DNA from: Escherichia coli
GTDB lineage: Bacteria; Pseudomonadota; Gammaproteobacteria; Enterobacterales; Enterobacteriaceae
NCBI RefSeq assembly: GCF_003334815.1
Contig: NZ_QOWO01000001.1
DNA: 64,000 nt
Strand: one strand, 5' to 3'
Below, one piece after another: positions 47,064 to 58,667 of this stretch (the first letter of the stretch is position 1; every line of letters begins with the position of its first letter). Under the pieces are notes generated by a model. That model made no database searches. It was not told where the DNA came from and was given only the letters and a program-made list of their open reading frames with translations. A program made the translations under genes and the position numbers.

Positions 47064-48029
47064 ATGCGCATCGGACAATATCAGCTCAGAAATCGCCTGA
47101 TCGCAGCGCCCATGGCTGGCATTACAGACAGACCTTTTCGGACGTTGTGCTACGAGATGGGAGCCGGATTGACAGTATCCGAGATGATGTCTTCTAACCC
47201 ACAGGTTTGGGAAAGCGACAAATCTCGTTTACGGATGGTGCACATTGATGAACCCGGTATTCGCACCGTGCAAATTGCTGGTAGCGATCCGAAAGAAATG
47301 GCAGATGCAGCACGTATTAACGTGGAAAGCGGTGCCCAGATTATTGATATCAATATGGGTTGCCCGGCTAAAAAAGTGAATCGCAAGCTCGCAGGTTCAG
47401 CCCTCTTGCAGTACCCGGATGTCGTTAAATCGATCCTTACCGAGGTCGTCAATGCAGTGGACGTTCCTGTTACCCTGAAGATTCGCACCGGCTGGGCACC
47501 GGAACACCGTAACTGCGAAGAGATTGCCCAACTGGCTGAAGACTGTGGCATTCAGGCTCTGACCATTCATGGCCGTACACGCGCCTGTTTGTTCAATGGA
47601 GAAGCTGAGTACGACAGTATTCGGGCAGTTAAGCAGAAAGTTTCCATTCCGGTTATCGCGAATGGCGACATTACTGACCCGCTTAAAGCCAGAGCTGTGC
47701 TCGACTATACAGGGGCGGATGCCCTGATGATAGGCCGCGCAGCTCAGGGAAGACCCTGGATCTTTCGGGAAATCCAGCATTATCTGGACACTGGGGAGTT
47801 GCTGCCCCCGCTGCCTTTGGCAGAGGTTAAGCGCTTGCTTTGCGCGCACGTTCGGGAACTGCATGACTTTTATGGTCCGGCAAAAGGGTACCGAATTGCA
47901 CGTAAACACGTTTCCTGGTATCTCCAGGAACACGCTCCAAATGACCAGTTTCGGCGCACATTCAACGCCATTGAGGATGCCAGCGAACAGCTGGAGGCGT
48001 TGGAGGCATACTTCGAAAATTTTGCGTAA
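47064..48029 (+). CDS. dusB: tRNA-dihydrouridine synthase B
   Basis: ORF track 321 aa; recognised DusB. Confidence 0.95.
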
Positions 48030-48054: not shown

Positions 48055-48351
48055 ATGTTCGAACAACGCGTAAATTCTGACGTACTGACCGTTTCTACCG
48101 TTAACTCTCAGGATCAGGTAACCCAAAAACCCCTGCGTGACTCGGTTAAACAGGCACTGAAGAACTATTTTGCTCAACTGAATGGTCAGGATGTGAATGA
48201 CCTCTATGAGCTGGTACTGGCTGAAGTAGAACAGCCCCTGTTGGACATGGTGATGCAATACACCCGTGGTAACCAGACCCGTGCTGCGCTGATGATGGGC
48301 ATCAACCGTGGTACGCTGCGTAAAAAATTGAAAAAATACGGCATGAACTAA
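48055..48351 (+). CDS. fis: Nucleoid-associated protein Fis
   Basis: ORF track 98 aa; exact Fis sequence ([15 protein letters not shown]...KKYGMN). Confidence 0.98.
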
Positions 48352-48363
48352 AGTCAAGCTGTA

Positions 48364-48373
48364 ACGGCATGAA
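48364..48373. repeat. Left copy of the 10-bp direct repeat ACGGCATGAA (candidate attL core)
   Basis: Exact match to 57684-57693; 13 bp after the fis stop. Confidence 0.55.
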
Positions 48374-48375
48374 AT

Positions 48376-48408
48376 TAAAGGGGCTATTTCAGCCCCTTTA
48401 CTTTTTGT
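48376..48408 (+). terminator. Rho-independent terminator serving fis; lies inside the island boundary
   Basis: aaaggggctatttcagcccctttactttttgtt, located between the left direct repeat and the tape-measure stop. Confidence 0.75.
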
Positions 48409-48428
48409 TGCAACCGTACTGACAACCC

Positions 48429-50702
48429 TTATGGTGTTTGCGCGCCATCTATCATCATGCTTCGCTGCCTTACTGCTTGTTGCTGTCGTAGTTGCTGTAT
48501 CACCTTCCGGGCTAATGCATCTTCATTCATACCAGGTTCTGCCTTCACGCTGATGTGGTACTGGTCGTTGCTATGCACCGTAGTGCCACCAGAGCGGTTG
48601 GCCAGTGCAGGTGACGGCAGGGCAGCACCAGAGGCAGTGGTTGCTGCTGGCTGCTGTACATCGTCGCGGAATGGTGCGGTAAAGAAATCTTTGGTTTTCT
48701 GCCACGCACCACCAGCAACATCAGACACGGCGTTTTTAAACTCCAGTGCCTTGTTGGTCAGGTTGCCAATGTTGTCAGAAACCCAAATGATCTTATCAAT
48801 CAGGAACGTGATCGGTGCGGTCACAAGCTCGATGCCAGCCGCCAGGGTCTTACCGAACGTCATCCCCATTTTACCGGCCTTATCCAGTTCCTCGCCGCTG
48901 TATTTGACCGGTTCGGTCAGTGACGTGAACCAGTTGAAAGCCGTCTTAACCGCAGCGCCCACGCCATCAATGACGGGCTTCAATGGCCCCATGCGCTCAT
49001 ACAGGCGATGCAGGGCATCGCTAAGCGGTTCCAGCCCGGATTTGATACCTTCACCCACGCCACCAAAAAAAGCCTTCACACCAGCCCAATGGCGGTAAAT
49101 CTGATAACCTGCCAGCGCCAGGCCAGCTACGGCAGCACCAACGCCAGTGGAAATGAACGCCGCACCGATGGCGCGCACGCCGGTAGCCACCGCAGGCAGG
49201 CCACGAGTGCTGGCCAGAACGGCGGATGCGTTCATGCGGGCAAACAGGCTGGACACGTTCAGCAATCCGCCTTTCAGGAACGTGAACGCAAAGCCAGCGG
49301 CGAACGTCGCCACACGCAGTGCCACCAGTGCACTGGAACCAATAACCACTGCTTTGGTCACGGTAGGGTATTCGCGCGCCAGTTCGGCAACCTTGCCGAT
49401 AACCGGGCCAACGGTAGCCAGAACGCCGTTGAATGCTGGCAGCAGCACTGTGCCGATCGTGACGCCCAGGTTAGACACACGGTTGTTGAAAATCTTAAGC
49501 TGCGCCGACGTTTTGGCGGTGGCTGCCTCATATTCAGCCTGCATAGAACCGGCATATTTGGTCTTGTCTTTGACCATATCCAGATTCTTTTGGTACGTAT
49601 CAAGCTGTGTCAGCATTGGTGCGATAGCGCCAATCGATTCCTTACCAAACAGTTGCGAAAGCGTTGCCGCCTGCATGTGTTTTGGCAGCTTGCTGATCTT
49701 GGACAGGATGACGCGGATTGTTTCATCGGCGTTCAGTTGCATTGATTTTGCAACCTGCTTGGATGTGAAGCCAAGCTGTTTAAACGCTTCACGCTGTGAC
49801 TTCGTGGCGGATGCGCCAGCGGTCAGGGATAGCAGCAGGTTTTTAATACCGGTGGCCGCAATCTCATTCTGCACGCCCATACCGCGCAGCGTTGCACCCA
49901 TCGCAGCGATAGAACCGGAAGCTGCACCAGCGACGCTGCCAAGTGGCCCGATGCGCTGCGTGATTTCCAGGATGTCTTTGGCTGATGCGGCGGTGTTGTT
50001 GCCCAGGTAGTTGATCTTGTCGGCCAGAACGTTCATCTGGTCCTGCGTCATCCCGAAGGCGGCGCGCATCTCTGCCATTGCCTGGCCTGCCTGGTCGGCG
50101 CTGACGTCAAAAGCCACACCCATTTTGATGGCCGATTCAGCAAACTTGGTTAGTTCGCTGGTGGCGATGCCTGATTGAGCACCAGCGGCAACAATCTTGC
50201 CGATTTCGTTGGCTGCCATCGGCATTTTGGTTGACATATCCTGGATAGCCTGGCCCATCTTAACCAGGCCGTCAGGGGTTTCGAAGTTGGCAACCTTGCG
50301 GATATCTGCCAGCGTATCTTCAAAATCCATAGCCTGTTTGATCGGTACAGCTACCGTTGCGCCAAGTGCGACAGTCCCCAGGATTCCTTCTTTGTAGCCT
50401 TGACGCTTCGCCAGGTTGCGTTCGCGGGCATCCTCCACGCGTTTCAGGCGTTCGGTGGCAGAACGAAGGCGTTCAACCTGCCCGACAACCGTTTGATAGC
50501 GGTCCTTCATGCGGGAGAATATCGCGCTATCCTGGCCATAACGCTTCATTGCTTCATTTAACTGGCGCTGTTCGCGCGACAGCTTAGAGATTGCGCTACC
50601 AATCTCGACGGTATTTTTCTTTACAGTTCCAAATGCACCACGAAGGCTGCCGGAAACGGCCCCACCAATCGTGATTGTTGCATTTAACTTCTTGTTGGCC
50701 AT
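48429..50702 (-). CDS. Phage tail tape measure protein (TP901-family core-like)
   Basis: ORF track 757 aa; N-terminal coiled coil, Ala/Gly-rich core (GNNTAASAKDILEITQRIGPLGSVAGAASGS...), hydrophobic C-terminal segments; called on recognised family features, not a search. Confidence 0.75.
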   Translation of the reverse strand: MANKKLNATITIGGAVSGSLRGAFGTVKKNTVEIGSAISKLSREQRQLNEAMKRYGQDSAIFSRMKDRYQTVVGQVERLRSATERLKRVEDARERNLAKRQGYKEGILGTVALGATVAVPIKQAMDFEDTLADIRKVANFETPDGLVKMGQAIQDMSTKMPMAANEIGKIVAAGAQSGIATSELTKFAESAIKMGVAFDVSADQAGQAMAEMRAAFGMTQDQMNVLADKINYLGNNTAASAKDILEITQRIGPLGSVAGAASGSIAAMGATLRGMGVQNEIAATGIKNLLLSLTAGASATKSQREAFKQLGFTSKQVAKSMQLNADETIRVILSKISKLPKHMQAATLSQLFGKESIGAIAPMLTQLDTYQKNLDMVKDKTKYAGSMQAEYEAATAKTSAQLKIFNNRVSNLGVTIGTVLLPAFNGVLATVGPVIGKVAELAREYPTVTKAVVIGSSALVALRVATFAAGFAFTFLKGGLLNVSSLFARMNASAVLASTRGLPAVATGVRAIGAAFISTGVGAAVAGLALAGYQIYRHWAGVKAFFGGVGEGIKSGLEPLSDALHRLYERMGPLKPVIDGVGAAVKTAFNWFTSLTEPVKYSGEELDKAGKMGMTFGKTLAAGIELVTAPITFLIDKIIWVSDNIGNLTNKALEFKNAVSDVAGGAWQKTKDFFTAPFRDDVQQPAATTASGAALPSPALANRSGGTTVHSNDQYHISVKAEPGMNEDALARKVIQQLRQQQAVRQRSMMIDGAQTP

Positions 50703-50723
50703 AATAATTGTGCTCTCAAGGAA

Positions 50724-50930
50724 TTAATTAAGTAAATTTTCTGCAAGGGTGTGTTCACCGATTGCCCGCAAGGCGGCAGCGGCCAGTTGCAGGGCGCATT
50801 CGGTGCGGTAGTCTCGCTGTTTCTGCATTTCCTCCGCTGTGTTGCACGCCAGAACTTTTGGCAGGACCATATCCACCAGTTCAGGCCAGGGGTTTGTTCC
50901 TTCCGGTTTTGTGTGAATACGGTCCAGCAT
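50724..50930 (-). CDS. Small hypothetical protein immediately upstream of the tape measure gene (possible tail assembly chaperone)
   Basis: ORF track 68 aa; same strand and tight spacing within the operon; no recognisable motif. Confidence 0.4.
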   Translation of the reverse strand: MLDRIHTKPEGTNPWPELVDMVLPKVLACNTAEEMQKQRDYRTECALQLAAAALRAIGEHTLAENLLN

Positions 50931-50939
50931 GGTGCCCCC

Positions 50940-51257
50940 TTATGCACTCCGTACCAGGATAGCGCCGCGCTTCACCGCCTGGCGTTTGGCCCGTTCACCG
51001 GAACTGATGCGGCTGGATGGTTGCCACTTCGTGCGTCCCAGGGCGGATGCGTGGCTTTCCGCTTCGTCACGCATGATGCGGCCCGCTTCATCGGTCATGT
51101 GTTCGAATGCGTTTAAACGGTTGCGAAGGCTTGCCAGCAGGTCGGCTGCTTCGTAGCTGATAGGGTTTTTCTCTGAAATGGTTTGGAAACGCTTTGTTTC
51201 GCTAAGGATCAAACGCGCTTCTTCTTTCATTGATTCGTACAGGTCATGTTTTTTCAT
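50940..51257 (-). CDS. Hypothetical protein (possible tail assembly chaperone); start uncertain
   Basis: ORF track 149 aa (50940..51389); preferred start at the internal MKKHDLYESMKEE (ATG at 51257, ~104 aa) because the upstream extension is low-complexity. Confidence 0.4.
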   Translation of the reverse strand: MKKHDLYESMKEEARLILSETKRFQTISEKNPISYEAADLLASLRNRLNAFEHMTDEAGRIMRDEAESHASALGRTKWQPSSRISSGERAKRQAVKRGAILVRSA

Positions 51258-51471
51258 AGTATTGGCCGCTAACAATAGTTGTTGATGATTAAGTGAGTGC
51301 GCGCTTTTAGGTGACAGGTGCGGCGCAACCGGTGTGGAATTAGTGGTGGTTTTGACCGTCCAGGATGACCACCAACCTGGTTCCAGCATCCATCGTCTGA
51401 GGAACGATGAAGGTTAAATTTGGCCGGTTATTTGGGGCACAGGGAACCGGTGAAACCTGTATTCTTGGCCA

Positions 51472-51636
51472 TTATTTGCCGTTCAGCCCGCTACTCAGAA
51501 ACTTTTCAATCACCTGGCTGCGTGAAGGGCGGATGCCTGTTCTGCGTTCCAGTTTGGCTTGCTCTCTTTCGACCTGGCGCACCAGGTCAGGGGCGAGGCG
51601 TACCGTTACGTGCTGGCGTGTTTCTTGTCGTTTCAT
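51472..51636 (-). CDS. Ribbon-helix-helix (CopG/Arc-like) DNA-binding protein, 54 aa; absent from the ORF track (below length cutoff)
   Basis: Hand-translated: MKRQETRQHVTVRLAPDLVRQVEREQAKLERRTGIRPSRSQVIEKFLSSGLNGK; beta-strand then two helices typical of RHH; starts 3 nt after the upstream gene stop. Confidence 0.55.
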   Translation of the reverse strand: MKRQETRQHVTVRLAPDLVRQVEREQAKLERRTGIRPSRSQVIEKFLSSGLNGK

Positions 51637-51639
51637 GGC

Positions 51640-51960
51640 TTAGTACCTGTTCATCCAGCTTTCGCGCTTCTGTTTCGGGCGCTGCTCGCGGTAGTGACTG
51701 CGCACCAGGGAAGCGAGGTAATTCACGGCGCGTTCAATCTGGTACTGCTTAAGCTCCGGGTAAGCCTTGCGAATCCATTTTTCAGCAGCGTCATCGCTGT
51801 AGATGAATCCTGACCAGCCAACCGGCTGCACTACGATGCGCGGTGTGTTTTCATCACCGTGGCGCACATACATGGCCACACCTTCGATAGCTGCCAGGAT
51901 TTCACCCGGCAGGGCAGCGCGCTCCGCTGCCGCTTTTTTGCTGCCCCACCACATGATCAA
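51640..51960 (-). CDS. Hypothetical protein, ~105 aa, translationally coupled to the downstream RHH gene
   Basis: ORF track 106 aa; TTG or ATG start overlapping the stop of the upstream 294-aa gene. Confidence 0.45.
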   Translation of the reverse strand: MIMWWGSKKAAAERAALPGEILAAIEGVAMYVRHGDENTPRIVVQPVGWSGFIYSDDAAEKWIRKAYPELKQYQIERAVNYLASLVRSHYREQRPKQKRESWMNRY

Positions 51961-52841
51961 GCCTTCCAGAACATAGTTGAGTCAGGCACCAGTGCGGATG
52001 CGTTCACCCACACAACGATTTCAACGGCACCATTCAGCACGCGGCGGGCGGTGACGCGGATTTCATCATCCAGGGCAACGGCTGCATTGCCGAAAGCGCC
52101 AATGATTGTGCTGGAAGTCTGGCCGCTGATTTCAGCGCGTACACCGTAGGCACGCAGAACGCCGTCTTGCAGTTCCAGGCCGGTGCAATCACCGCCAACA
52201 ATGGCTTTAACTTCATCAAAGCGCAGGTTTTTGGCTGCAATCTTCTGCGCCACTGCGGTGAATGACGGGCTGGCCAGCGTTTCCGCTGCGGTTTCCAGGT
52301 GGTTCAGCAGTACGAAATCAGCCAGGTCAGCAATTCCGCGTTCAATGGCGGTGTTGACCACTTCCAGCGTGGTATCGTCTGCGAAGTCGTGTTTCATCTG
52401 CTTGCGGCTAAGGGTGTAGCCCACGCCGTAAGCCGGTGCGTTGTTGTGGTTGAACGCTGATACCAGGTAAGGCAGGCCGCTCATGGTGATTTCTTCGCCG
52501 TCAGCCACTTTGGCGAACGCACCAGGGCGAACGACAACGAAGCGGTCAGCCACTTCGCGGCCAGTCGTTGCGCCGGTGTTGCCAGTCGGAGGCGTGGTCA
52601 TCGGGCCAGGGATGCGGATGATTTCAGCGCCTGCCTGTGCCACCAGTGAACGTTCAGCCAGAACAGCGTTGAAGGTGGTCTGCTTGCCGCCTTTCGGGGT
52701 CAGCACGTCATTCATGGACAGGTAGCGAACTGCTGCAGGTTCCACAGGGATGAATTGAGTAATGTCACCGTTGCCATCAGTGCGAATGTGGCCGCCCTGG
52801 TGGTTCAACGCGTCGTTGATAAGTTGAGATAAAACGTTCAT
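51957..52841 (-). CDS. Phage structural-like protein, 294 aa (major tail- or capsid-like; unassigned)
   Basis: ORF track 322 aa; start moved to MNVLSQLINDAL (ATG at 52841), which has a GGAG RBS 8 nt upstream; first gene of the minus-strand operon ending in the tape measure. Confidence 0.4.
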   Translation of the reverse strand: MNVLSQLINDALNHQGGHIRTDGNGDITQFIPVEPAAVRYLSMNDVLTPKGGKQTTFNAVLAERSLVAQAGAEIIRIPGPMTTPPTGNTGATTGREVADRFVVVRPGAFAKVADGEEITMSGLPYLVSAFNHNNAPAYGVGYTLSRKQMKHDFADDTTLEVVNTAIERGIADLADFVLLNHLETAAETLASPSFTAVAQKIAAKNLRFDEVKAIVGGDCTGLELQDGVLRAYGVRAEISGQTSSTIIGAFGNAAVALDDEIRVTARRVLNGAVEIVVWVNASALVPDSTMFWKA

Positions 52842-53229
52842 TAAAAATGCTCCGGTTGTTGTGCAATAAATCGTCTGGAATGACTTAAAGATATACAGTA
52901 ACCAGGCCGAACACAATAGCCACAATGTGAGCTTTTTAATGTAAAATCAGTAACTTATAACCATGAATACTTGCAAATAACCAGGCATAATCCGGCGTAA
53001 TCGATATTTACACATCTTTACAATTCAGCGTGTGTAAAACGTGTTCGCTTTATTTTGCAATCTCGCAAGTATGGTTCCAGTGCTTTGATAGGATTCACAT
53101 AAATGATTGATTTACTTGACGTAATCATAAAGTGAGTTTTGTAGGGGCACGCACAACGCGAATTACGCGGGACCAATGCCCCCGCAGGCTGTACCCCCCT
53201 CGGAAGTACCTTGACTTTTTTGGCAGCAG

Positions 53230-53540
53230 ATGGCGATGACACCTAATGTCACCATGACGGCGTTATGTTGGAAAGGTGTCATTAGGTGTCATAGCGGGAA
53301 ACACGCTGATTATTAAAGAAAAATACAAACAAGATAATGTAATGAATGACACCTGTGACACCATGACACCCATTTCTATAAAGTATAACGACCACTGTTA
53401 CATTATCACAGTGGTCGTTATTTTCTTTAAAAATGCTGTCATAGGTGTCATAGGTGTCATTAGTAATGTCGCAACCCTTGCGGGTTATGGCTTGAGAACA
53501 ATGACACCTGCCATGACACCTTATAAATTAATGACACCTA
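53230..53540. repeat. Iteron array: at least 10 perfect copies of the octamer ATGACACC/GGTGTCAT in both orientations, with a central 9-bp-arm palindrome; probable replication origin
   Basis: Perfect copies start at 53236, 53275, 53285, 53346, 53363, 53444, 53453, 53501, 53513 and 53531; variants at 53246, 53355 and 53435; palindrome gaccactgt-N9-acagtggtc at 53390-53416; located 3' of the primase gene. Confidence 0.7.
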
Positions 53541-53607
53541 GGCGTCACTTTGAAAATAAAAAAAGCCCCGGCATTCGCCAGGGTAATGGGCAACAACTGT
53601 TGTGATG

Positions 53608-53832
53608 TTATGATCGGATGAACGGCAAGATTTCAGCGGAATCCACTACCCTTATGCGGTAGCTGCATAGCAGGTTTTCACCCAACTTGGCCAGTTCCTG
53701 CTGCACCTCTGGCAGCCTATTGCGAGCATGGTCTACCGCTTCCTGTTCAGTGGCGAAACCCTCCATAATTTCGGTTTCGGTGTAGGTGCCGTGTTCCGGG
53801 TCAAAAGCAATGATATATGCGCGATAACTCAT
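53608..53832 (-). CDS. Small hypothetical protein between the primase gene and the iteron origin
   Basis: ORF track 74 aa; GAGG RBS 6 nt upstream of the ATG. Confidence 0.5.
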   Translation of the reverse strand: MSYRAYIIAFDPEHGTYTETEIMEGFATEQEAVDHARNRLPEVQQELAKLGENLLCSYRIRVVDSAEILPFIRS

Positions 53833-53841
53833 AGTATTACC

Positions 53842-55530
53842 TCAAAACTGGTGGTTAGGCCCATCAAAATAGCGATGGTCTTGCTGTCCAAAAACTTTCG
53901 GTGGCATTAGGTAAAAACGCCCTTTACTTGTTCTACGTGCATCCCTTCCTGTCAGTTTTCGCAGAATGTTACCGCACTGCGTTGCCTGGGATTTTGTTGG
54001 CCGATCCTGCCCAATAGACAACAGAACATCCGTTGCAGTCATTTCTATATATGCAGCCAGGCGATCACTGTTCCAATCAAAACGCGCCAATATCATTTCT
54101 TCAATCGGGTCAGTTTGCCCGTGCTGTTCGTTCACGACTTCCAGCATGGCTTCTTCATCACGGTCCAGCCACCAGCGTTCACCTGCTTCAAACCAGGAAA
54201 GAACTTCGGCCCATAATTGTTGTGTGTCTATGCCATGCTCGTAGTTAACGGCAGTTACAGGAATGGTCCACCAGCGCACGTTCCCGGTGTCATCCGCCAG
54301 GAAGTGTTTCGGGTTCACTGACGCAAAAAACACGGTGCGGCGCTGGTACTTCGATTCAAGCCGGTCATAAGGGCGGCGCAGGTCATCACGGTCCTGGCTG
54401 ATAAATGCTTTGAGCTTGGCAATATCCGCCTTGCGAAACGTCGCATCCAATTCGCCTAGCTCAACAAGCCAGTGACTAATTGCGCTGGCCACGCTGTCTT
54501 TATTGCCGGGGTCAATAGTTGCTCCCACCTTAACCAGGTTGCGATTGTCAGGGGGCAGAAGCGCTTTAAACCATGCTGTTTTACCCAGTGACTGCTCGCC
54601 CTGGAAAACCAGCACGCCTTTGGACCAGAAACCCGCTTCTAAGTAAGCAGCCGCCACGGCAGACAGCAACCAACGACGCACCAGCATGGCCAGCAGATCG
54701 CGACTGTAGTCATCTGGCGTGCTGATAGTATTCAGCAGGTCTGCAAATCGGCTTCGTCCATCCCATTCACGTTGATTGATGAAATCCCTGACAGGATTAT
54801 AAGTATTGCGCACAGCGATAGTTTTGATATGACCTTCAATATTACTCATTGGTAACCGGTTCAGTGCGGCGAGGCTTAAAATTTCACTCACAGCGCAGTT
54901 ATCGCGAGCATCTGAACCGCCACTAACGCCAGGTACTAAAACCTCAACGTCCTTGCTAATCTCATTATATTTTGCAGAAATGCTGTAGTTATCTAATAGA
55001 CGTTCAACATTAGGGCGTGTGTTTAAAGGCTGGCCATTGCTTCCAATATTTGGCCAGGTTGTCATTAATACAGGAGCCATATCGTGAATGTCTTTTACAG
55101 TTGCTGCGGCGGTTGCTCGTTCTTCTTTGCGCAGCATGCCCACCAGGCTTTCACCGCGTAGGGCGGCGTCTCTAAGCCTGTCCATGTTCCATTTTTCCGG
55201 TTCACGGTCAGTAATGCCTTTAAATAAACGGGCTTCCTTAACTCCAGCCACTGCCAGCTTGTCAGCAATAGTGCTGATTTGAAGTTGCTTAATATCACCA
55301 GCCAGATATACCCGCGCAGACCGGCGACCATCGTCGATAATTCGTAGATTATCTAAATCATCCAGTTGTCTTGGCCCAAGGTAGACAGGAGGAGTAGTGT
55401 CACCGGCAACTTGTTTACCCATTCCTTCTTCCCAGCCCTTGGCATGGCTCCAAGCGTCAGAACCGGCAAAAATAATTGCTTCCGTAAAAGGGTCTTTAGG
55501 TAATAGCTTAACGTTAGGCGCGTTTCTCAT
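53842..55530 (-). CDS. Satellite-type primase / replication initiator with P-loop NTPase domain
   Basis: ORF track 562 aa; Walker A motif GEQSLGKTAW; sits between alpA and the iterons as in P4 alpha / PICI pri-rep arrangements. Confidence 0.65.
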   Translation of the reverse strand: MRNAPNVKLLPKDPFTEAIIFAGSDAWSHAKGWEEGMGKQVAGDTTPPVYLGPRQLDDLDNLRIIDDGRRSARVYLAGDIKQLQISTIADKLAVAGVKEARLFKGITDREPEKWNMDRLRDAALRGESLVGMLRKEERATAAATVKDIHDMAPVLMTTWPNIGSNGQPLNTRPNVERLLDNYSISAKYNEISKDVEVLVPGVSGGSDARDNCAVSEILSLAALNRLPMSNIEGHIKTIAVRNTYNPVRDFINQREWDGRSRFADLLNTISTPDDYSRDLLAMLVRRWLLSAVAAAYLEAGFWSKGVLVFQGEQSLGKTAWFKALLPPDNRNLVKVGATIDPGNKDSVASAISHWLVELGELDATFRKADIAKLKAFISQDRDDLRRPYDRLESKYQRRTVFFASVNPKHFLADDTGNVRWWTIPVTAVNYEHGIDTQQLWAEVLSWFEAGERWWLDRDEEAMLEVVNEQHGQTDPIEEMILARFDWNSDRLAAYIEMTATDVLLSIGQDRPTKSQATQCGNILRKLTGRDARRTSKGRFYLMPPKVFGQQDHRYFDGPNHQF

Positions 55531-55795
55531 ATCGCACCCCGCGTTTTAACTCCAGATACATCGCCCATGATTCAGAATCGCTGATGCGAAACGGCACCAG
55601 GCTATCAGCCATAGCGGCGTGACGTGAAACAATAGTCCACGGGCGGTTTACACCTTCGCGAATGCATGCTTGCAACAATAATTGTGCTGCCGCCATACGC
55701 TGGGCGGTAAGTTCGCCAACGGTTAACTGGCGCTGTGGGTTACGCAACAGGCTGTTATAGCGACTGATAGCCTGATTTACGGTTGTTTTCTTCAT
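55514..55795 (-). CDS. Small hypothetical protein directly upstream of the primase gene, overlapping its start
   Basis: ORF track 93 aa; GAGGTGG RBS; 17-nt overlap with the primase start. Confidence 0.5.
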   Translation of the reverse strand: MKKTTVNQAISRYNSLLRNPQRQLTVGELTAQRMAAAQLLLQACIREGVNRPWTIVSRHAAMADSLVPFRISDSESWAMYLELKRGVRYEKRA

Positions 55796-55803
55796 AAGCC
55801 ACC

Positions 55804-55983
55804 TCAGCGCTGTACTGGCTGGCGGCTTTCAAGCCACGCCATAACATCTTTGCGCCGCCAGGCCACGCGTTTTGGCCCTAATTTTATGCAATTAGGAAAC
55901 GTGCCAGCCTGGATATAGCGCCAGATAGTCATGCGGGATAATGTTGTTAGTGTTGTGACTTGCTTAGCAGTCAGTAATTCCAT
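55804..55983 (-). CDS. alpA: AlpA-family phage transcriptional regulator (MerR-like HTH), 59 aa; absent from the ORF track (below length cutoff)
   Basis: Hand-translated: MELLTAKQVTTLTTLSRMTIWRYIQAGTFPNCIKLGPKRVAWRRKDVMAWLESRQPVQR; classic AlpA signature; GAGGG RBS. Confidence 0.7.
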   Translation of the reverse strand: MELLTAKQVTTLTTLSRMTIWRYIQAGTFPNCIKLGPKRVAWRRKDVMAWLESRQPVQR

Positions 55984-56277
55984 CTTACGGCCCTCAAAAC
56001 ATGGCCGGTGGATATGTGGTCTGTAATGATTTATGATTATGTTGCGTTAACAAAGAACGCGACCATTACAGCCTTCACCGGCTTTTTGGTATTAAGGGGT
56101 TCGGTTTTCTGTTTGGCGACGTGAACCGATCCCCGCCTTATTCAAGCCCTCAGTTCTGCTGGGGGCTTTTTATTACTACATGACAATAATACTCAAATTG
56201 TATCAGCAGTAAATACCCTTTAAATTCATAAACTTAACTGCAAATAACGCTACATAACTCTATATAATCATCAATTT

Positions 56278-57513
56278 TTAATTATCTGATTTTAAAAGGT
56301 TTATTTTTTCTAAATATTTTATCCATTTGTCCAAGGCTAACCGTTTTTCCGGGATGTACTGGCTACGGTTGTACACCGCCATCACTCCTGGCATTGAGTG
56401 GCCCAGCAACTGTTCAACCACATGCGGGGCTATCCCCAAGTTATTTAGACTGGTGGCAAAAGTGCGGCGCAGGTCATGCAACGTCCACGGCGTTGAATGC
56501 TCTAATCGTCTGTATAAGATACGCCCCCACTGGCTGACAGCTTCGGGTTTCTTCATTTCACCAAGCAGCATTCCGCTATCAAGATGATTTTGGCGTAGCT
56601 GTAAAATAAATGGCTGTATAGATTCAGGCACGGGTCTGATGATTTTCTCCCCACCCTTGCTATGTTCTCGCGGAACTGTCCAAATCCATTCTTTCACGTT
56701 CCATTCCGACCATGTCGAAAGACGAATTTCTTGTGTTCTTGCACCAAACACTATTAGCAATTTTAAAAGCGCGGTGTAGTAAGGTAGAAACGCATATTCG
56801 CTTTTTAGCGCATTCCAAAGGCCACTAAGTTCTTCAGAAGTTAAAACACGATCACGTTTTGCCTGCTTTCTTCCAACATCAGTAACTTTGATATCCTCCA
56901 GCGCATCACTGTAAACATCGTGCAGCCTGCGGTTGTGAATCAACGCCTGCTTGCAGTTACCTAATATGTAGCCGCTTGCTACCGGCGCGACTTTTTTGAT
57001 TCTGCTAAATGTCTCCATCCATCTTGCTTTAGAGCACTGTTCAAGTGGCAATTCGCCGATGAAAGGATAAATATGTCTTTCGAATTGGCGTCTATGCCTT
57101 TCAAAGTTGACCCGGTTTTCCGCCGCGTACTCATTAATCCAGCGTTCCAATGCTTCCCTGATAGTGACAGGTTTCATGGTTTTTGCTGACTCTTGGTCAA
57201 ACTGGTCTTTAGGATCTAGATTATGAGCAAGCCACCGTTTGCATTGGTCGCGTTTCACCCTCGCCTCAGCAAGAGATAAGGCAGGATACTTGCCCAGCAC
57301 TAGCGTCAAAGTATTGGCGCTTTTATGCTTATTCTTATAACGGAACAACCATTGGATGTTATTGGCCGGTCTCTTCTCGCCATCAAGGATTTTGCGCCTT
57401 GATGGTGTAACGCGAACAGAAAGGCTGCCACCGTCAGCAACATCAAAAGGTTTTTCGATGACTTTGCGGGTTAACGCACGCAATTGAACATCTGAGAGTT
57501 TATTTTCGGCCAT
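56278..57513 (-). CDS. int: Tyrosine recombinase, P4-type integrase family
   Basis: ORF track 435 aa; start taken at MAENKLSDVQLRAL (ATG at 57513, 411 aa); P4-integrase-like N-terminus (DGGSLSVRVTPSRRK) and C-terminal catalytic motifs (HDLRRTF...LGHS...VYNR...Y). Confidence 0.85.
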   Translation of the reverse strand: MAENKLSDVQLRALTRKVIEKPFDVADGGSLSVRVTPSRRKILDGEKRPANNIQWLFRYKNKHKSANTLTLVLGKYPALSLAEARVKRDQCKRWLAHNLDPKDQFDQESAKTMKPVTIREALERWINEYAAENRVNFERHRRQFERHIYPFIGELPLEQCSKARWMETFSRIKKVAPVASGYILGNCKQALIHNRRLHDVYSDALEDIKVTDVGRKQAKRDRVLTSEELSGLWNALKSEYAFLPYYTALLKLLIVFGARTQEIRLSTWSEWNVKEWIWTVPREHSKGGEKIIRPVPESIQPFILQLRQNHLDSGMLLGEMKKPEAVSQWGRILYRRLEHSTPWTLHDLRRTFATSLNNLGIAPHVVEQLLGHSMPGVMAVYNRSQYIPEKRLALDKWIKYLEKINLLKSDN

Positions 57514-57683
57514 AGAGTTAATGACAACCTTTTTGACAACTGTATGCAGGGAGTAACTGATAACTGATGATACAATGCGAGCCAATAAAAAATAAATATC
57601 TCTTTCCGCATCAATTATTTATGATGAATACAAATTATCTAGAGTGATAATAAATTACGTATAATGACTCTGTATTTTACAAT

Positions 57684-57693
57684 ACGGCATGAA
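57684..57693. repeat. Right copy of the 10-bp direct repeat ACGGCATGAA (candidate attR core)
   Basis: Exact match to 48364-48373; ~170 bp beyond the integrase start. Confidence 0.55.
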
Positions 57694-57721
57694 CTAATTC
57701 AGGTTAGCTAAATGCTTGATT

Positions 57722-57760
57722 AAAAAGGCGCTACTCGGCATGGGGAAGCGCCTTTTTTAT
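57722..57760 (+). terminator. Orphaned rho-independent terminator, probably the ancestral fis terminator displaced by the insertion
   Basis: aaaaaggcgct...agcgccttttttat on the plus strand with no upstream plus-strand gene; lies just outside attR. Confidence 0.5.
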
Positions 57761-57782
57761 AGGTGTCACAAAGGGAGTGACC

Positions 57783-58667
57783 ATGAGAACAGGATGTGAA
57801 CCGACCCGGTTTGGTAATGAAGCTAAGACCATTATTCACGGTGATGCGCTTGCCGAACTTAAAAAGATCCCCGCCGAAAGTGTCGATCTGATCTTTGCCG
57901 ACCCACCATATAACATCGGTAAAAATTTTGATGGTCTGATCGAAGCCTGGAAAGAAGATCTGTTTATCGACTGGCTGTTTGAAGTGATTGCAGAGTGCCA
58001 CCGCGTTCTGAAAAAGCAGGGCAGCATGTACATCATGAACAGTACGGAAAACATGCCCTTTATCGATCTCCAGTGCCGCAAGCTTTTTACCATCAAAAGT
58101 CGCATCGTCTGGTCATATGACAGTTCTGGAGTGCAGGCGAAAAAACACTACGGCTCCATGTACGAACCCATCCTGATGATGGTGAAAGACGCAAAGAACT
58201 ACACATTCAACGGTGATGCTATTCTGGTAGAAGCCAAAACCGGATCGCAGCGCGCGTTGATCGATTATCGCAAAAATCCTCCACAGCCTTACAATCATCA
58301 AAAAGTACCGGGTAACGTTTGGGATTTTCCGCGCGTGCGTTATTTGATGGATGAATATGAAAACCACCCGACGCAAAAACCGGAAGCCTTACTGAAACGC
58401 ATTATTCTCGCCTCTTCCAACCCAGGCGATATCGTTCTCGACCCGTTTGCTGGTAGCTTTACTACCGGTGCCGTAGCCATCGCCAGCGGACGAAAATTCA
58501 TTGGTATTGAGATCAACAGCGAGTACATCAAAATGGGGCTTCGACGGCTGGATGTCGCGTCGCATTACTCTGCGGAAGAACTGGCGAAAGTGAAAAAAAG
58601 AAAGACCGGCAACCTGTCAAAACGAAGCCGGTTAAGCGAAGTTGACCCCGATCTCATTACAAAGTAA
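57783..58667 (+). CDS. yhdJ: DNA adenine methyltransferase YhdJ
   Basis: ORF track 296 aa (GTG at 57777); ATG at 57783 taken as start; DPPY motif (FADPPYNIG). Confidence 0.93.
   Translation: MRTGCEPTRFGNEAKTIIHGDALAELKKIPAESVDLIFADPPYNIGKNFDGLIEAWKEDLFIDWLFEVIAECHRVLKKQGSMYIMNSTENMPFIDLQCRKLFTIKSRIVWSYDSSGVQAKKHYGSMYEPILMMVKDAKNYTFNGDAILVEAKTGSQRALIDYRKNPPQPYNHQKVPGNVWDFPRVRYLMDEYENHPTQKPEALLKRIILASSNPGDIVLDPFAGSFTTGAVAIASGRKFIGIEINSEYIKMGLRRLDVASHYSAEELAKVKKRKTGNLSKRSRLSEVDPDLITK

What the first reader, a model, noticed from the sequence alone, without database searches (positions are those of the whole stretch)
48376..57760. The island replaces the fis terminator with its own and strands the ancestral one upstream of yhdJ
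A canonical hairpin plus T-run (48376-48408) lies inside the island boundary and now ends the dusB-fis transcript. A second canonical terminator (57722-57760) sits just outside attR with no plus-strand gene feeding into it, consistent with being the original fis terminator. Fis is a dosage-sensitive global regulator, so a changed 3' end could alter its mRNA stability.
Basis: partly seen in the sequence, partly recalled or inferred. Interest (0 to 1): 0.5.

Follow-up and report, generated by a model that had tools for sequence, protein, structure and literature searches.

The report
Phage satellite swaps the fis terminator
A 9.3-kb phage satellite inserted into the last 17 bases of the E. coli fis gene brings its own transcription terminator for fis and pushes the original one 9.3 kb downstream; this is real, but it is the normal way this already described family of fis-integrating satellites keeps its target gene working.

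Summary
The observation and its structural interpretation both hold. fis (48055-48351) ends in a 17-bp repeat, AATACGGCATGAACTAA, found at 48335-48351 and again at 57681-57697. The repeats flank a 9.3-kb island carrying an integrase, an AlpA-like excisionase, a primase and a tape-measure gene.

K-12 has the empty site. There the fis stop codon is followed directly by the sequence at window 57698 onward, including the 57722-57758 hairpin, identical over 110 nt.

The island hairpin (48376-48400 plus T-run to 48408) is now the first terminator after fis. It also lies 28 nt past the stop of the convergent tape-measure gene and folds equally well on both strands, so it probably terminates in both directions.

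This is not new in kind. "fis PICIs" are published (Tommasini et al. 2023; 3565 elements) with the same att core, and that paper notes the identity block can extend into the fis terminator. All 13 other distinct sequences I collected downstream of a fis stop also have a strong terminator 21-28 nt past it; most are near-copies of the native one.

This lineage carries a diverged version (GGGGC/GCCCC stem, short loop). Any effect on fis mRNA or Fis dosage is untested. Interest is low to moderate.

The parts
48055..48351 (+). fis coding sequence. It stays intact after integration, and the Fis protein is the same accession as in K-12.
   Evidence: ORF list. Annotated as fis, WP_000462905.1, in both K-12 JM109 and island carrier UPEC85.
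48335..48351 (+). attL copy of the 17-bp direct repeat AATACGGCATGAACTAA: the last 17 nt of fis, including the TAA stop.
   Evidence: Sequence, repeat finder family D2. Matches the published fis-PICI identity block TACGGCATGAACTAA (PMC10111431).
48352..48408 (+). Island-borne replacement fis 3'UTR: a 24-nt spacer, hairpin 48376-48400 (GC core GGGGC/GCCCC at 48380-48396) and the T-run CTTTTTGT at 48401-48408.
   Evidence: Present in 48 of 5426 E. coli genomes, always adjacent to fis. Stem and T-run are conserved against 50-58% identity in the flanking spacers when compared with the relative L062/L055.
48364..48378 (+). Degenerate third copy of the att core, ACGGCATGAAATTAA (13 of 15 matches). 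Its role is unexplained.
   Evidence: Repeat finder D2. Absent from the related left end of L055/L062.
48429..50702 (-). Last gene of the island's leftward gene string, a tail tape-measure homolog. It converges on fis, and its stop codon lies 28 nt from the hairpin.
   Evidence: phrog_28 E 2.7e-129, PF10145, TIGR01760. Distance.
53842..55530 (-). Primase/helicase (VapE-type) replication gene of the island.
   Evidence: phrog_2249 DNA primase, E 1.2e-82. RefSeq annotation is 'VapE domain-containing protein'.
55804..55983 (-). AlpA-like excisionase/regulator.
   Evidence: phrog_66 and phrog_2790, 'excisionase and transcriptional regulator', E about 1e-12.
56278..57513 (-). Tyrosine integrase, transcribed away from attR.
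   Evidence: Annotation. 54% amino-acid identity to the integrase of a capsid-encoding fis island, L003.
57681..57697 (+). attR copy of the 17-bp direct repeat.
57698..57760 (+). Ancestral fis 3'UTR and intrinsic terminator: hairpin 57722-57752 including the A-tract, T-run 57753-57758. It is now separated from fis by the island.
   Evidence: Identical to the K-12 fis-yhdJ spacer. Folding.
57783..58667 (+). yhdJ (adenine DNA methyltransferase). Its ATG lies 24 nt after the ancestral terminator's T-run.
   Evidence: Annotation in UPEC85 and K-12, sequence.

Best explanation
The 9.3-kb element (48352-57697) is a phage satellite of the published fis-integrating kind, called fis PICI or PICMI-like. 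Its tyrosine integrase recombines within the last 17 nt of fis.

The attachment region of the satellite carries those 17 nt, so Fis is unchanged. Directly after them it carries a replacement 3'UTR ending in a canonical Rho-independent terminator (48376-48408). After integration this island-borne hairpin is the first terminator that dusB-fis transcripts meet. The native fis terminator (57722-57758) is displaced to just outside attR, upstream of yhdJ, where no plus-strand island gene feeds into it. It regains its job on excision.

The island hairpin is a near-palindrome with an A-run on one side and a T-run on the other. It lies 28 nt past the stop of the convergent tape-measure gene. It therefore most likely works in both directions:
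- It ends fis mRNA.
- It stops the very active fis promoter from reading antisense into the satellite.
- It ends the satellite's late transcript, which would otherwise run into fis when integrated, or into the integrase gene in the excised circle.

Shown: the anatomy, the empty-site comparison and the recurrence of a terminator at this position in every fis island sampled. Inferred: that the hairpins actually terminate, and in which directions.
For: Empty site. K-12 has fis, then the native hairpin, then yhdJ, identical to window 57681-57790.

Island distribution. The full island is in 47 of 5426 complete E. coli genomes, and its left end is in 48, always beside fis.

Satellite gene set. Integrase, AlpA-like excisionase, primase and tape measure.

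Literature. [quoted passage not shown] The paper also states the general rule that attP carries a replacement of the target gene (PMC10111431). Vibrio PICMIs integrate at the end of fis with 17-bp repeats (PMC10803314).

Generality. 14 of 14 distinct sequences downstream of a fis stop have a hairpin at or below -15 kcal/mol plus a T-run, starting 21-28 nt after the stop. These are 1 native, at least 11 clearly island-borne, and 2 IMG/VR contigs of less certain status. Chance matches to the same 15-mer gave 0 of 23. In the published attL set, the string GCGCCTTTTTT occurs 163 times in the file, which holds 202 fis attL entries.

Selection. Against its closest different relative, the stem and T-run are conserved: 8/10 in each stem arm and 7/8 in the T-run. 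The spacers are 14/24 and 10/20.

Bidirectionality. The island hairpin gives -14.7 kcal/mol on the + strand and -15.2 on the - strand. The native one gives -19.3 and -14.3. The minus-strand tail after the GC core is TTTAATTTCAT, and the tape-measure stop is 28 nt away.
Against: There is no transcript data, so termination at either hairpin is predicted and not measured.

On the minus strand the U-tract is interrupted (UUUAAUUUCAU), so antisense termination may be weak.

A variant in 11 of 48 carriers (GCCCC to GTCCC) keeps pairing only in the fis-sense RNA. This weakens the case for a bidirectional role, though it suits the fis-terminating role.

Homology of this particular hairpin to a fis 3'UTR is only suggested, by equal spacing and a few shared motifs. 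A scan of 100,044 species genomes found no species whose native fis is followed by this hairpin type.
Confidence: 0.8

Rival explanations
1. The hairpin at 48376-48400 exists only as the terminator of the satellite's own late transcript (the tape-measure gene). In this view, ending fis mRNA is an accidental by-product with no selection behind it.
For: It lies 28 nt after the tape-measure stop and is as stable on the minus strand (-15.2) as on the plus strand (-14.7). In the excised circle it would separate the late genes from the integrase gene, which is an inference from the gene order.
Against: In all other fis islands sampled, the hairpin at this position is a copy of the native fis terminator and is clearly more stable in the fis sense than antisense. 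Examples are -17.4 vs -10.4 and -19.0 vs -7.0.

Its distance from the fis stop is constant at 21-28 nt. The distance from the last island ORF I could detect varies much more: convergent open frames of at least 60 codons end about 60-190 nt after the fis stop.

The 11-genome variant preserves pairing only in the fis sense.
Confidence: 0.12
2. The inverted repeat is a DNA-level part of the recombination site, for example a binding or bending site for integrase, AlpA or IHF in attP, and not an RNA terminator.
For: Its position relative to the crossover core is fixed across island lineages. A 13/15 pseudo-core lies between the core and the hairpin.
Against: The stem sequence differs completely between lineages (GGCGC, GGGGC, GGCATTAT, AAGCCTTTTCAG, GACGCCAGC), while the hairpin-plus-T-run architecture is kept. 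That pattern is expected for an RNA structure and not for a protein-binding site. The native attB has the same architecture because it is the fis terminator.
Confidence: 0.04
3. The terminator swap measurably changes fis expression through mRNA stability, termination efficiency or antisense effects from convergent island transcription. On this reading, island carriers have altered Fis dosage.
For: The 3'UTR sequence is entirely different beyond the stop codon. The proximal U-tract is poorer: UUUACUUUUU against UUUUUU. The hairpin is weaker: -14.7 against -19.3 kcal/mol. fis becomes convergent with an island gene. Moving the dusB-fis operon changes phenotype even when it is insulated by its natural terminators (PMC4751926).
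Against: Both ends are canonical terminators at nearly the same distance, 55 and 61 nt. The same arrangement is tolerated in thousands of genomes. In the repositioned-operon study cited in the For line (PMC4751926), Fis protein amounts were unchanged although fis gene dosage was lower, because fis transcription rose to compensate. fis autoregulation, known from my own recollection of the literature, is the likely buffer. No data of any kind exist for island carriers.
Confidence: 0.12

Closest known systems
fis PICIs (Tommasini, Mageeney & Williams 2023, NAR Genom Bioinform 5:lqad036; PMC10111431)
   Same: The att identity block is the same (TACGGCATGAACTAA at the fis terminus). The island sits between fis and yhdJ. 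The integrase and AlpA-like regulator are at the yhdJ side, and a primase and a 'late zone' face fis. The integrase is 54% identical to that of a capsid-type fis PICI. [quoted passage not shown]
   Different: Most published fis PICIs carry a near-copy of the native fis 3'UTR and terminator, often with a TGA stop. This lineage shares only 17 nt with the host and has a different hairpin, with a GGGGC/GCCCC stem and a 5-nt loop. The string CCCCTTTT does not occur in the published attL file. This island's left end appears there only as the tandem neighbour of Eco9562.16.fis. Its late zone holds a tape-measure gene and no capsid genes.
PICMIs, phage-inducible chromosomal minimalist islands of Vibrionaceae (Barcia-Cruz et al. 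2024, Nat Commun 15:664; PMC10803314)
   Same: Integration at the end of fis with 17-bp direct repeats, and an int-alpA-prim core. The variable cargo lies between prim and fis.
   Different: PICMIs are smaller (about 6 kb), occur in Vibrio and have virulent-phage helpers. That paper does not mention terminators at all (0 occurrences).
attP-borne replacement of the 3' end of a target gene (tRNA genes, icd)
   Same: The element duplicates the 3' end of the gene it enters, so the gene product is unchanged. This is stated as the general rule in PMC10111431.
   Different: Here only 5 codons plus the stop are replaced. The functionally important replaced part is non-coding: the 3'UTR and terminator.
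Bidirectional terminators between convergent genes in E. coli (Ju et al. 2019, as summarised in bioRxiv 10.1101/2022.10.23.513370)
   Same: A single site between two convergent genes is expected to end both transcripts.
   Different: Per that summary, those sites 'do not resemble intrinsic terminators' and are proposed to work through polymerase collisions. The island element is a classical hairpin with A and T runs on either side.

Membership tests
fis-integrating phage satellites (fis PICI / PICMI-like) | Flanked by direct repeats containing TACGGCATGAACTAA, with one copy forming the end of fis | tested here: met
   17-bp repeat at 48335-48351 and 57681-57697. Empty site in K-12.
fis-integrating phage satellites (fis PICI / PICMI-like) | Tyrosine integrase of the fis-targeting clade next to the att site distal to fis | tested here: met
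   Integrase at 56278-57513 (-), 54% amino-acid identity over 399 residues to the integrase of capsid-type fis island L003. No phylogeny was built.
fis-integrating phage satellites (fis PICI / PICMI-like) | AlpA-type excisionase/regulator and a primase/replication gene | tested here: met
   The 59-aa protein hits phrog_66/2790, excisionase-regulator. The 562-aa protein hits phrog_2249, primase. The Pfam Phage_AlpA model itself was not run on the 59-aa protein.
fis-integrating phage satellites (fis PICI / PICMI-like) | Induction, excision and packaging that depend on a helper phage | not testable with these tools
   No exact match to the island's left end in IMG/VR viral contigs. No experimental data.
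Rho-independent (intrinsic) terminator | GC-rich stem-loop immediately followed by a U-rich tract, downstream of a stop codon | tested here: met
   Island: 10-bp stem with a 5-nt loop, then CUUUUUGU, 24 nt after the fis stop. Native: extended stem, then UUUUUU.
Rho-independent (intrinsic) terminator | Transcript 3' ends map to the U-tract, or termination is shown in vitro or in reporters | not testable with these tools
   No transcript data for island carriers. Literature refers only to 'natural terminators flanking the operon' (PMC4751926).
Bidirectional intrinsic terminator | Lies between convergent genes, with the hairpin stable on both strands and a U-rich tail on both strands | tested here: inconclusive
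   fis (+) and the tape-measure gene (-) converge. Stability is -14.7 and -15.2 kcal/mol. The minus-strand tail UUUAAUUUCAU is interrupted. A common variant breaks antisense pairing.
attP-borne replacement of target-gene 3' end | The recombinant gene encodes the same product as the uninterrupted gene | tested here: met
   Fis is WP_000462905.1 in K-12 and in all island carriers examined.
attP-borne replacement of target-gene 3' end | The replacement segment is homologous to the displaced host segment | tested here: inconclusive
   Clear for capsid-type fis islands, which carry near-identical UTR and hairpin. For this island there are only equal spacing (28 vs 29 nt), shared TAA..TGA..AAAGG motifs and a compensatory-looking GGCGC/GCGCC to GGGGC/GCCCC difference. 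No native source was found.

The most novel reading that the evidence does not exclude
The satellite-borne terminator is not a neutral replacement but a regulatory device. Its strength in the fis sense would set how much of the very strong, growth-phase-dependent fis transcription leaks antisense into the satellite's late genes, coupling satellite silence or induction to host growth state. Alternatively, it would change fis mRNA 3'-end stability so that the satellite tunes Fis, a host factor known to assist phage excision. Different fis-satellite lineages, carrying different replacement 3'UTRs and even a different stop codon, would then impose different Fis settings on their hosts.
Probability: 0.07. 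Interest if true: 0.6.

Novelty: new member of a known kind. Interest (0 to 1): 0.22.

Why it matters
Fis is a global regulator and one of the most strongly transcribed genes during outgrowth. Thousands of enterobacterial genomes carry a satellite in its last codons.

This analysis shows that these satellites always bring a terminator to the same position. That explains how such an apparently risky site is tolerated. It is a clean example of an attachment site that replaces non-coding regulatory sequence as well as coding sequence.

For this window, the practical points are as follows:
- fis and its product are intact.
- The fis 3'UTR is entirely replaced.
- fis now converges on a satellite gene.
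- yhdJ is cut off from any fis read-through.

None of this is surprising to a specialist. It would matter more only if the swap were shown to alter Fis levels.

Tried and rejected
1. Native hairpin as a known sRNA. Rfam gave only a sub-threshold hit of the native hairpin to STnc40: 25.6 bits against a gathering score of 45. The alignment rests on the generic AAAAAGGCGC...GCGCCUUUUUU terminator. I rejected this as a terminator look-alike. A literature search for a fis 3'UTR RNA found nothing.

2. Hairpin captured from another species. I considered that the island hairpin plus the pseudo-core (..ACGGCATGAAATTAAAGGGGC..) was taken from another species' native fis end. A scan of 100,044 species genomes for a gene ending ATGAACTRA followed by this hairpin gave 17 hits, none of them fis; they were mostly an Alteromonas BON-domain-like gene. 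The idea is unsupported, although the exact-match pattern limits sensitivity.

3. Excised or packaged form. A search of IMG/VR for this island's left end gave no match.

4. Formal covariation test. MAFFT does not keep the 3' arms of hairpins with different loop lengths in register (A3). I therefore compared stems directly instead.

5. hpt-site relative. L060 lies at the 5' side of hpt, so it says nothing about terminators.


Full report
**What is in the window**

The region reads prmA, dusB (47064-48029), fis (48055-48351), a block of minus-strand genes, then yhdJ (57783-58667), yhdU and acrS.

The last 17 nt of fis, AATACGGCATGAACTAA including the TAA stop, occur at 48335-48351 and again at 57681-57697. 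Between the two copies lie 9.3 kb encoding, from right to left and all on the minus strand:
- a tyrosine integrase (56278-57513);
- a 59-aa AlpA-like excisionase/regulator (55804-55983);
- a VapE-type primase/helicase (53842-55530);
- several small proteins with no family match;
- a 757-aa tail tape-measure homolog (48429-50702).

One 109-codon ORF (53276-53605) is on the plus strand.

**Checking the observation**

The first hairpin is TAAAGGGGC-TATTT-CAGCCCCTTTA at 48376-48400, followed by CTTTTTGT to 48408. It was reported by the consensus scan. It folds at -14.7 kcal/mol, and its context z-score is -3.3 against dinucleotide shuffles.

The second is AAAAAGGCGCTACTCGGCATGGGGAAGCGCCTTTTTT at 57722-57758, at -19.3 kcal/mol with a context z-score of -3.1. 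The scan missed it only because its loop is longer than the scan allows.

Terminator-like patterns as such are not rarer than chance in this region: 21 found against 15.4 +/- 4.1 expected. Position and comparison carry the argument, not the pattern count.

In K-12 JM109 the fis stop codon is followed directly by TTCAGGTTAGCTAAATGCTTGATT, then the GGCGC hairpin, then yhdJ. Window 57681-57790 is found letter for letter in that locus.

All 5426 complete E. coli genomes match the flanks. Only 47 hold the full island, and 48 hold its 81-nt left end, in every case beside fis.

The 57722-57758 hairpin is therefore the ancestral fis terminator, and the 48376-48408 hairpin arrived with the island. The Fis protein is the same accession (WP_000462905.1) with and without the island.

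**What the island is**

It belongs to a published class. Tommasini, Mageeney and Williams (2023, PMC10111431) mapped 3565 genomic islands in fis, nearly all identified as PICI-type phage satellites. [quoted passage not shown] They also state the general rule that an attP inside a gene carries a replacement for the displaced part.

Barcia-Cruz et al. (2024, PMC10803314) describe Vibrio satellites that integrate at the end of fis with 17-bp repeats and an int-alpA-prim core. They do not mention terminators.

The integrase here is 54% identical to that of a capsid-encoding fis satellite found at the same site in another E. coli. About 124 of 5426 E. coli genomes carry a related integrase gene.

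**Is a replacement terminator the rule?**

I collected fis junctions from two sources: other E. coli genomes, and viral-contig matches to the att core. Every one of 14 distinct sequences lying downstream of a fis stop codon has a hairpin at or below -15 kcal/mol followed by a T-run. In each case it starts 21-28 nt after the stop. One of the 14 is the native K-12 sequence, and the rest are island left ends or viral-contig ends.

The same test was run on 23 chance occurrences of the 15-mer elsewhere. It gave none at -15 and one at -12 kcal/mol.

In most islands the segment is a near-copy of a native enterobacterial fis 3'UTR and terminator. Some replace the fis stop codon TAA with TGA.

In the published set of attL sequences, the file holding 202 fis entries contains GCGCCTTTTTT 163 times and GCCTTTTT 180 times. 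These are string counts over the whole file, not a per-sequence audit.

**How this lineage differs**

Identity to the host stops after 17 nt. The stem is GGGGC/GCCCC with a 5-nt loop, in place of GGCGC...GCGCC with a 16-nt interior.

The spacer from the stop to the stem has the same length as the native one, 28 against 29 nt. Against the nearest different relative (L055/L062), the stem arms (8/10 each) and T-run (7/8) are conserved, whereas the flanking spacers are 14/24 and 10/20. That pattern fits selection on the terminator.

**Mechanism**

The island hairpin is now the first terminator downstream of fis. This gives a predicted 55-nt 3'UTR in place of 61 nt.

It also lies 28 nt beyond the stop of the convergent tape-measure gene. 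It is equally stable on both strands, at -14.7 and -15.2 kcal/mol, whereas the native hairpin is asymmetric at -19.3 and -14.3.

I therefore think it acts in both directions. It ends fis mRNA and shields the satellite from antisense read-through. It also ends the satellite's late transcript, which would otherwise run into fis when integrated, or into the integrase gene in the excised circle.

The antisense role is less certain for two reasons. The minus-strand U-tract is interrupted (UUUAAUUUCAU). In addition, 11 of 48 carriers have GCCCC changed to GTCCC, which keeps a G.U pair only in the fis-sense RNA.

The displaced native terminator has no plus-strand island gene upstream. It remains identical to K-12 and would resume its role on excision. 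It ends 24 nt before the yhdJ start codon, so any fis read-through that reached yhdJ in K-12 is cut off in carriers. That last point is an inference.

**What remains speculation**

No tool here can measure transcripts, so a change in fis mRNA stability or Fis dosage is untested.

Three things make a large effect unlikely:
- Both ends are canonical terminators at similar distances from the stop.
- fis is autoregulated (my recollection of the literature), and Fis protein levels were unchanged when the dusB-fis operon was repositioned on the chromosome (PMC4751926).
- The arrangement is common in nature.

**Negative results**

Rfam gives only a sub-threshold, terminator-driven hit to STnc40 on the native hairpin. 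No literature on a fis 3'UTR RNA was found.

No species representative genome has a native fis followed by the GGGGC-type hairpin. The island's left end is not in IMG/VR.

**Verdict**

The functional consequence is untested.

The phenomenon is the normal design of a known satellite family. This lineage is a previously unremarked member with a diverged, probably bidirectional, replacement terminator. Interest is low to moderate.

Noticed in passing
window 48429-50702 (-): A 9.3-kb satellite with no recognisable capsid or other tail gene carries a full tail tape-measure homolog as its last gene (phrog_28 E 2.7e-129, TIGR01760, PF10145). In a relative (NZ_CP173557.1, L062 8741-13612) the same gene is split by an IS21-family element. 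What a lone tape-measure gene does for a satellite is unclear.
   Followed up: partly
window 48364-48378: A 13/15 copy of the att core (ACGGCATGAAATTAA) lies inside the island, 12 nt after the attL core. The 7-mer CGGCATG also sits in the loop of the native fis terminator (57735-57741), where it is conserved across genera and in most island-borne copies. It is absent from the related L055/L062 left end. It could be a relic, an extra integrase site or chance; this is unresolved.
   Followed up: partly
window 57660-57665 (+): A perfect -10 hexamer TATAAT points out of the island, 15 nt before the attR core, toward the stranded fis terminator and yhdJ. There is no good -35. Similar TATAAT/TAATAT hexamers sit just before the core at the integrase ends of other fis islands (L010, L023, L055). 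It could drive a short transcript across the att site.
   Followed up: no
L066 (NZ_CP019280.1) 151-231; 11 of 48 E. coli carriers: There is a single-base variant of the island hairpin, with the 3' arm GCCCC changed to GTCCC. It keeps a G.U pair in the fis-sense RNA but gives a C.A mismatch in the antisense RNA.
   Followed up: partly
L003 16338-16427; L061 16499-16588 (-); L065: Capsid-encoding satellites at the same site in other E. coli change the fis stop codon from TAA to TGA. They also install an Enterobacter/Klebsiella-like fis 3'UTR and terminator. E. coli strains therefore carry at least four different fis 3'UTRs, depending on which satellite they host.
   Followed up: partly
window 57753-57785: The ancestral fis terminator's T-run ends only 24 nt before the yhdJ ATG. 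This leaves little room for a yhdJ promoter of its own, so yhdJ may depend on read-through from fis in island-free strains and lose it in carriers.
   Followed up: no
L060 (NZ_CM173843.1 3870500-3891500): A satellite with a related integrase sits between the 5' end of hpt and gcd. This is the 'hpt PICI' site of Tommasini et al. 2023, and here the target is the gene's upstream side and not its 3' end.
   Followed up: no
L056 6960-7049 (IMG/VR contig) and published attR of fis.Eco9562.16.fis: Tandem arrays occur at fis. In one case this island type's integrase end is followed by another satellite's left end. In the other, a 16-kb satellite is followed by this island's left end.
   Followed up: partly
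window 56144-56168: A strong 11-bp hairpin (AAGCCCTCAG-TTC-TGCTGGGGGCTT) lies between the integrase stop (56278) and the AlpA-like gene (55983). The scan listed it on the + strand, but it is placed where a minus-strand terminator or attenuator separating int from the regulatory genes would sit.
   Followed up: no
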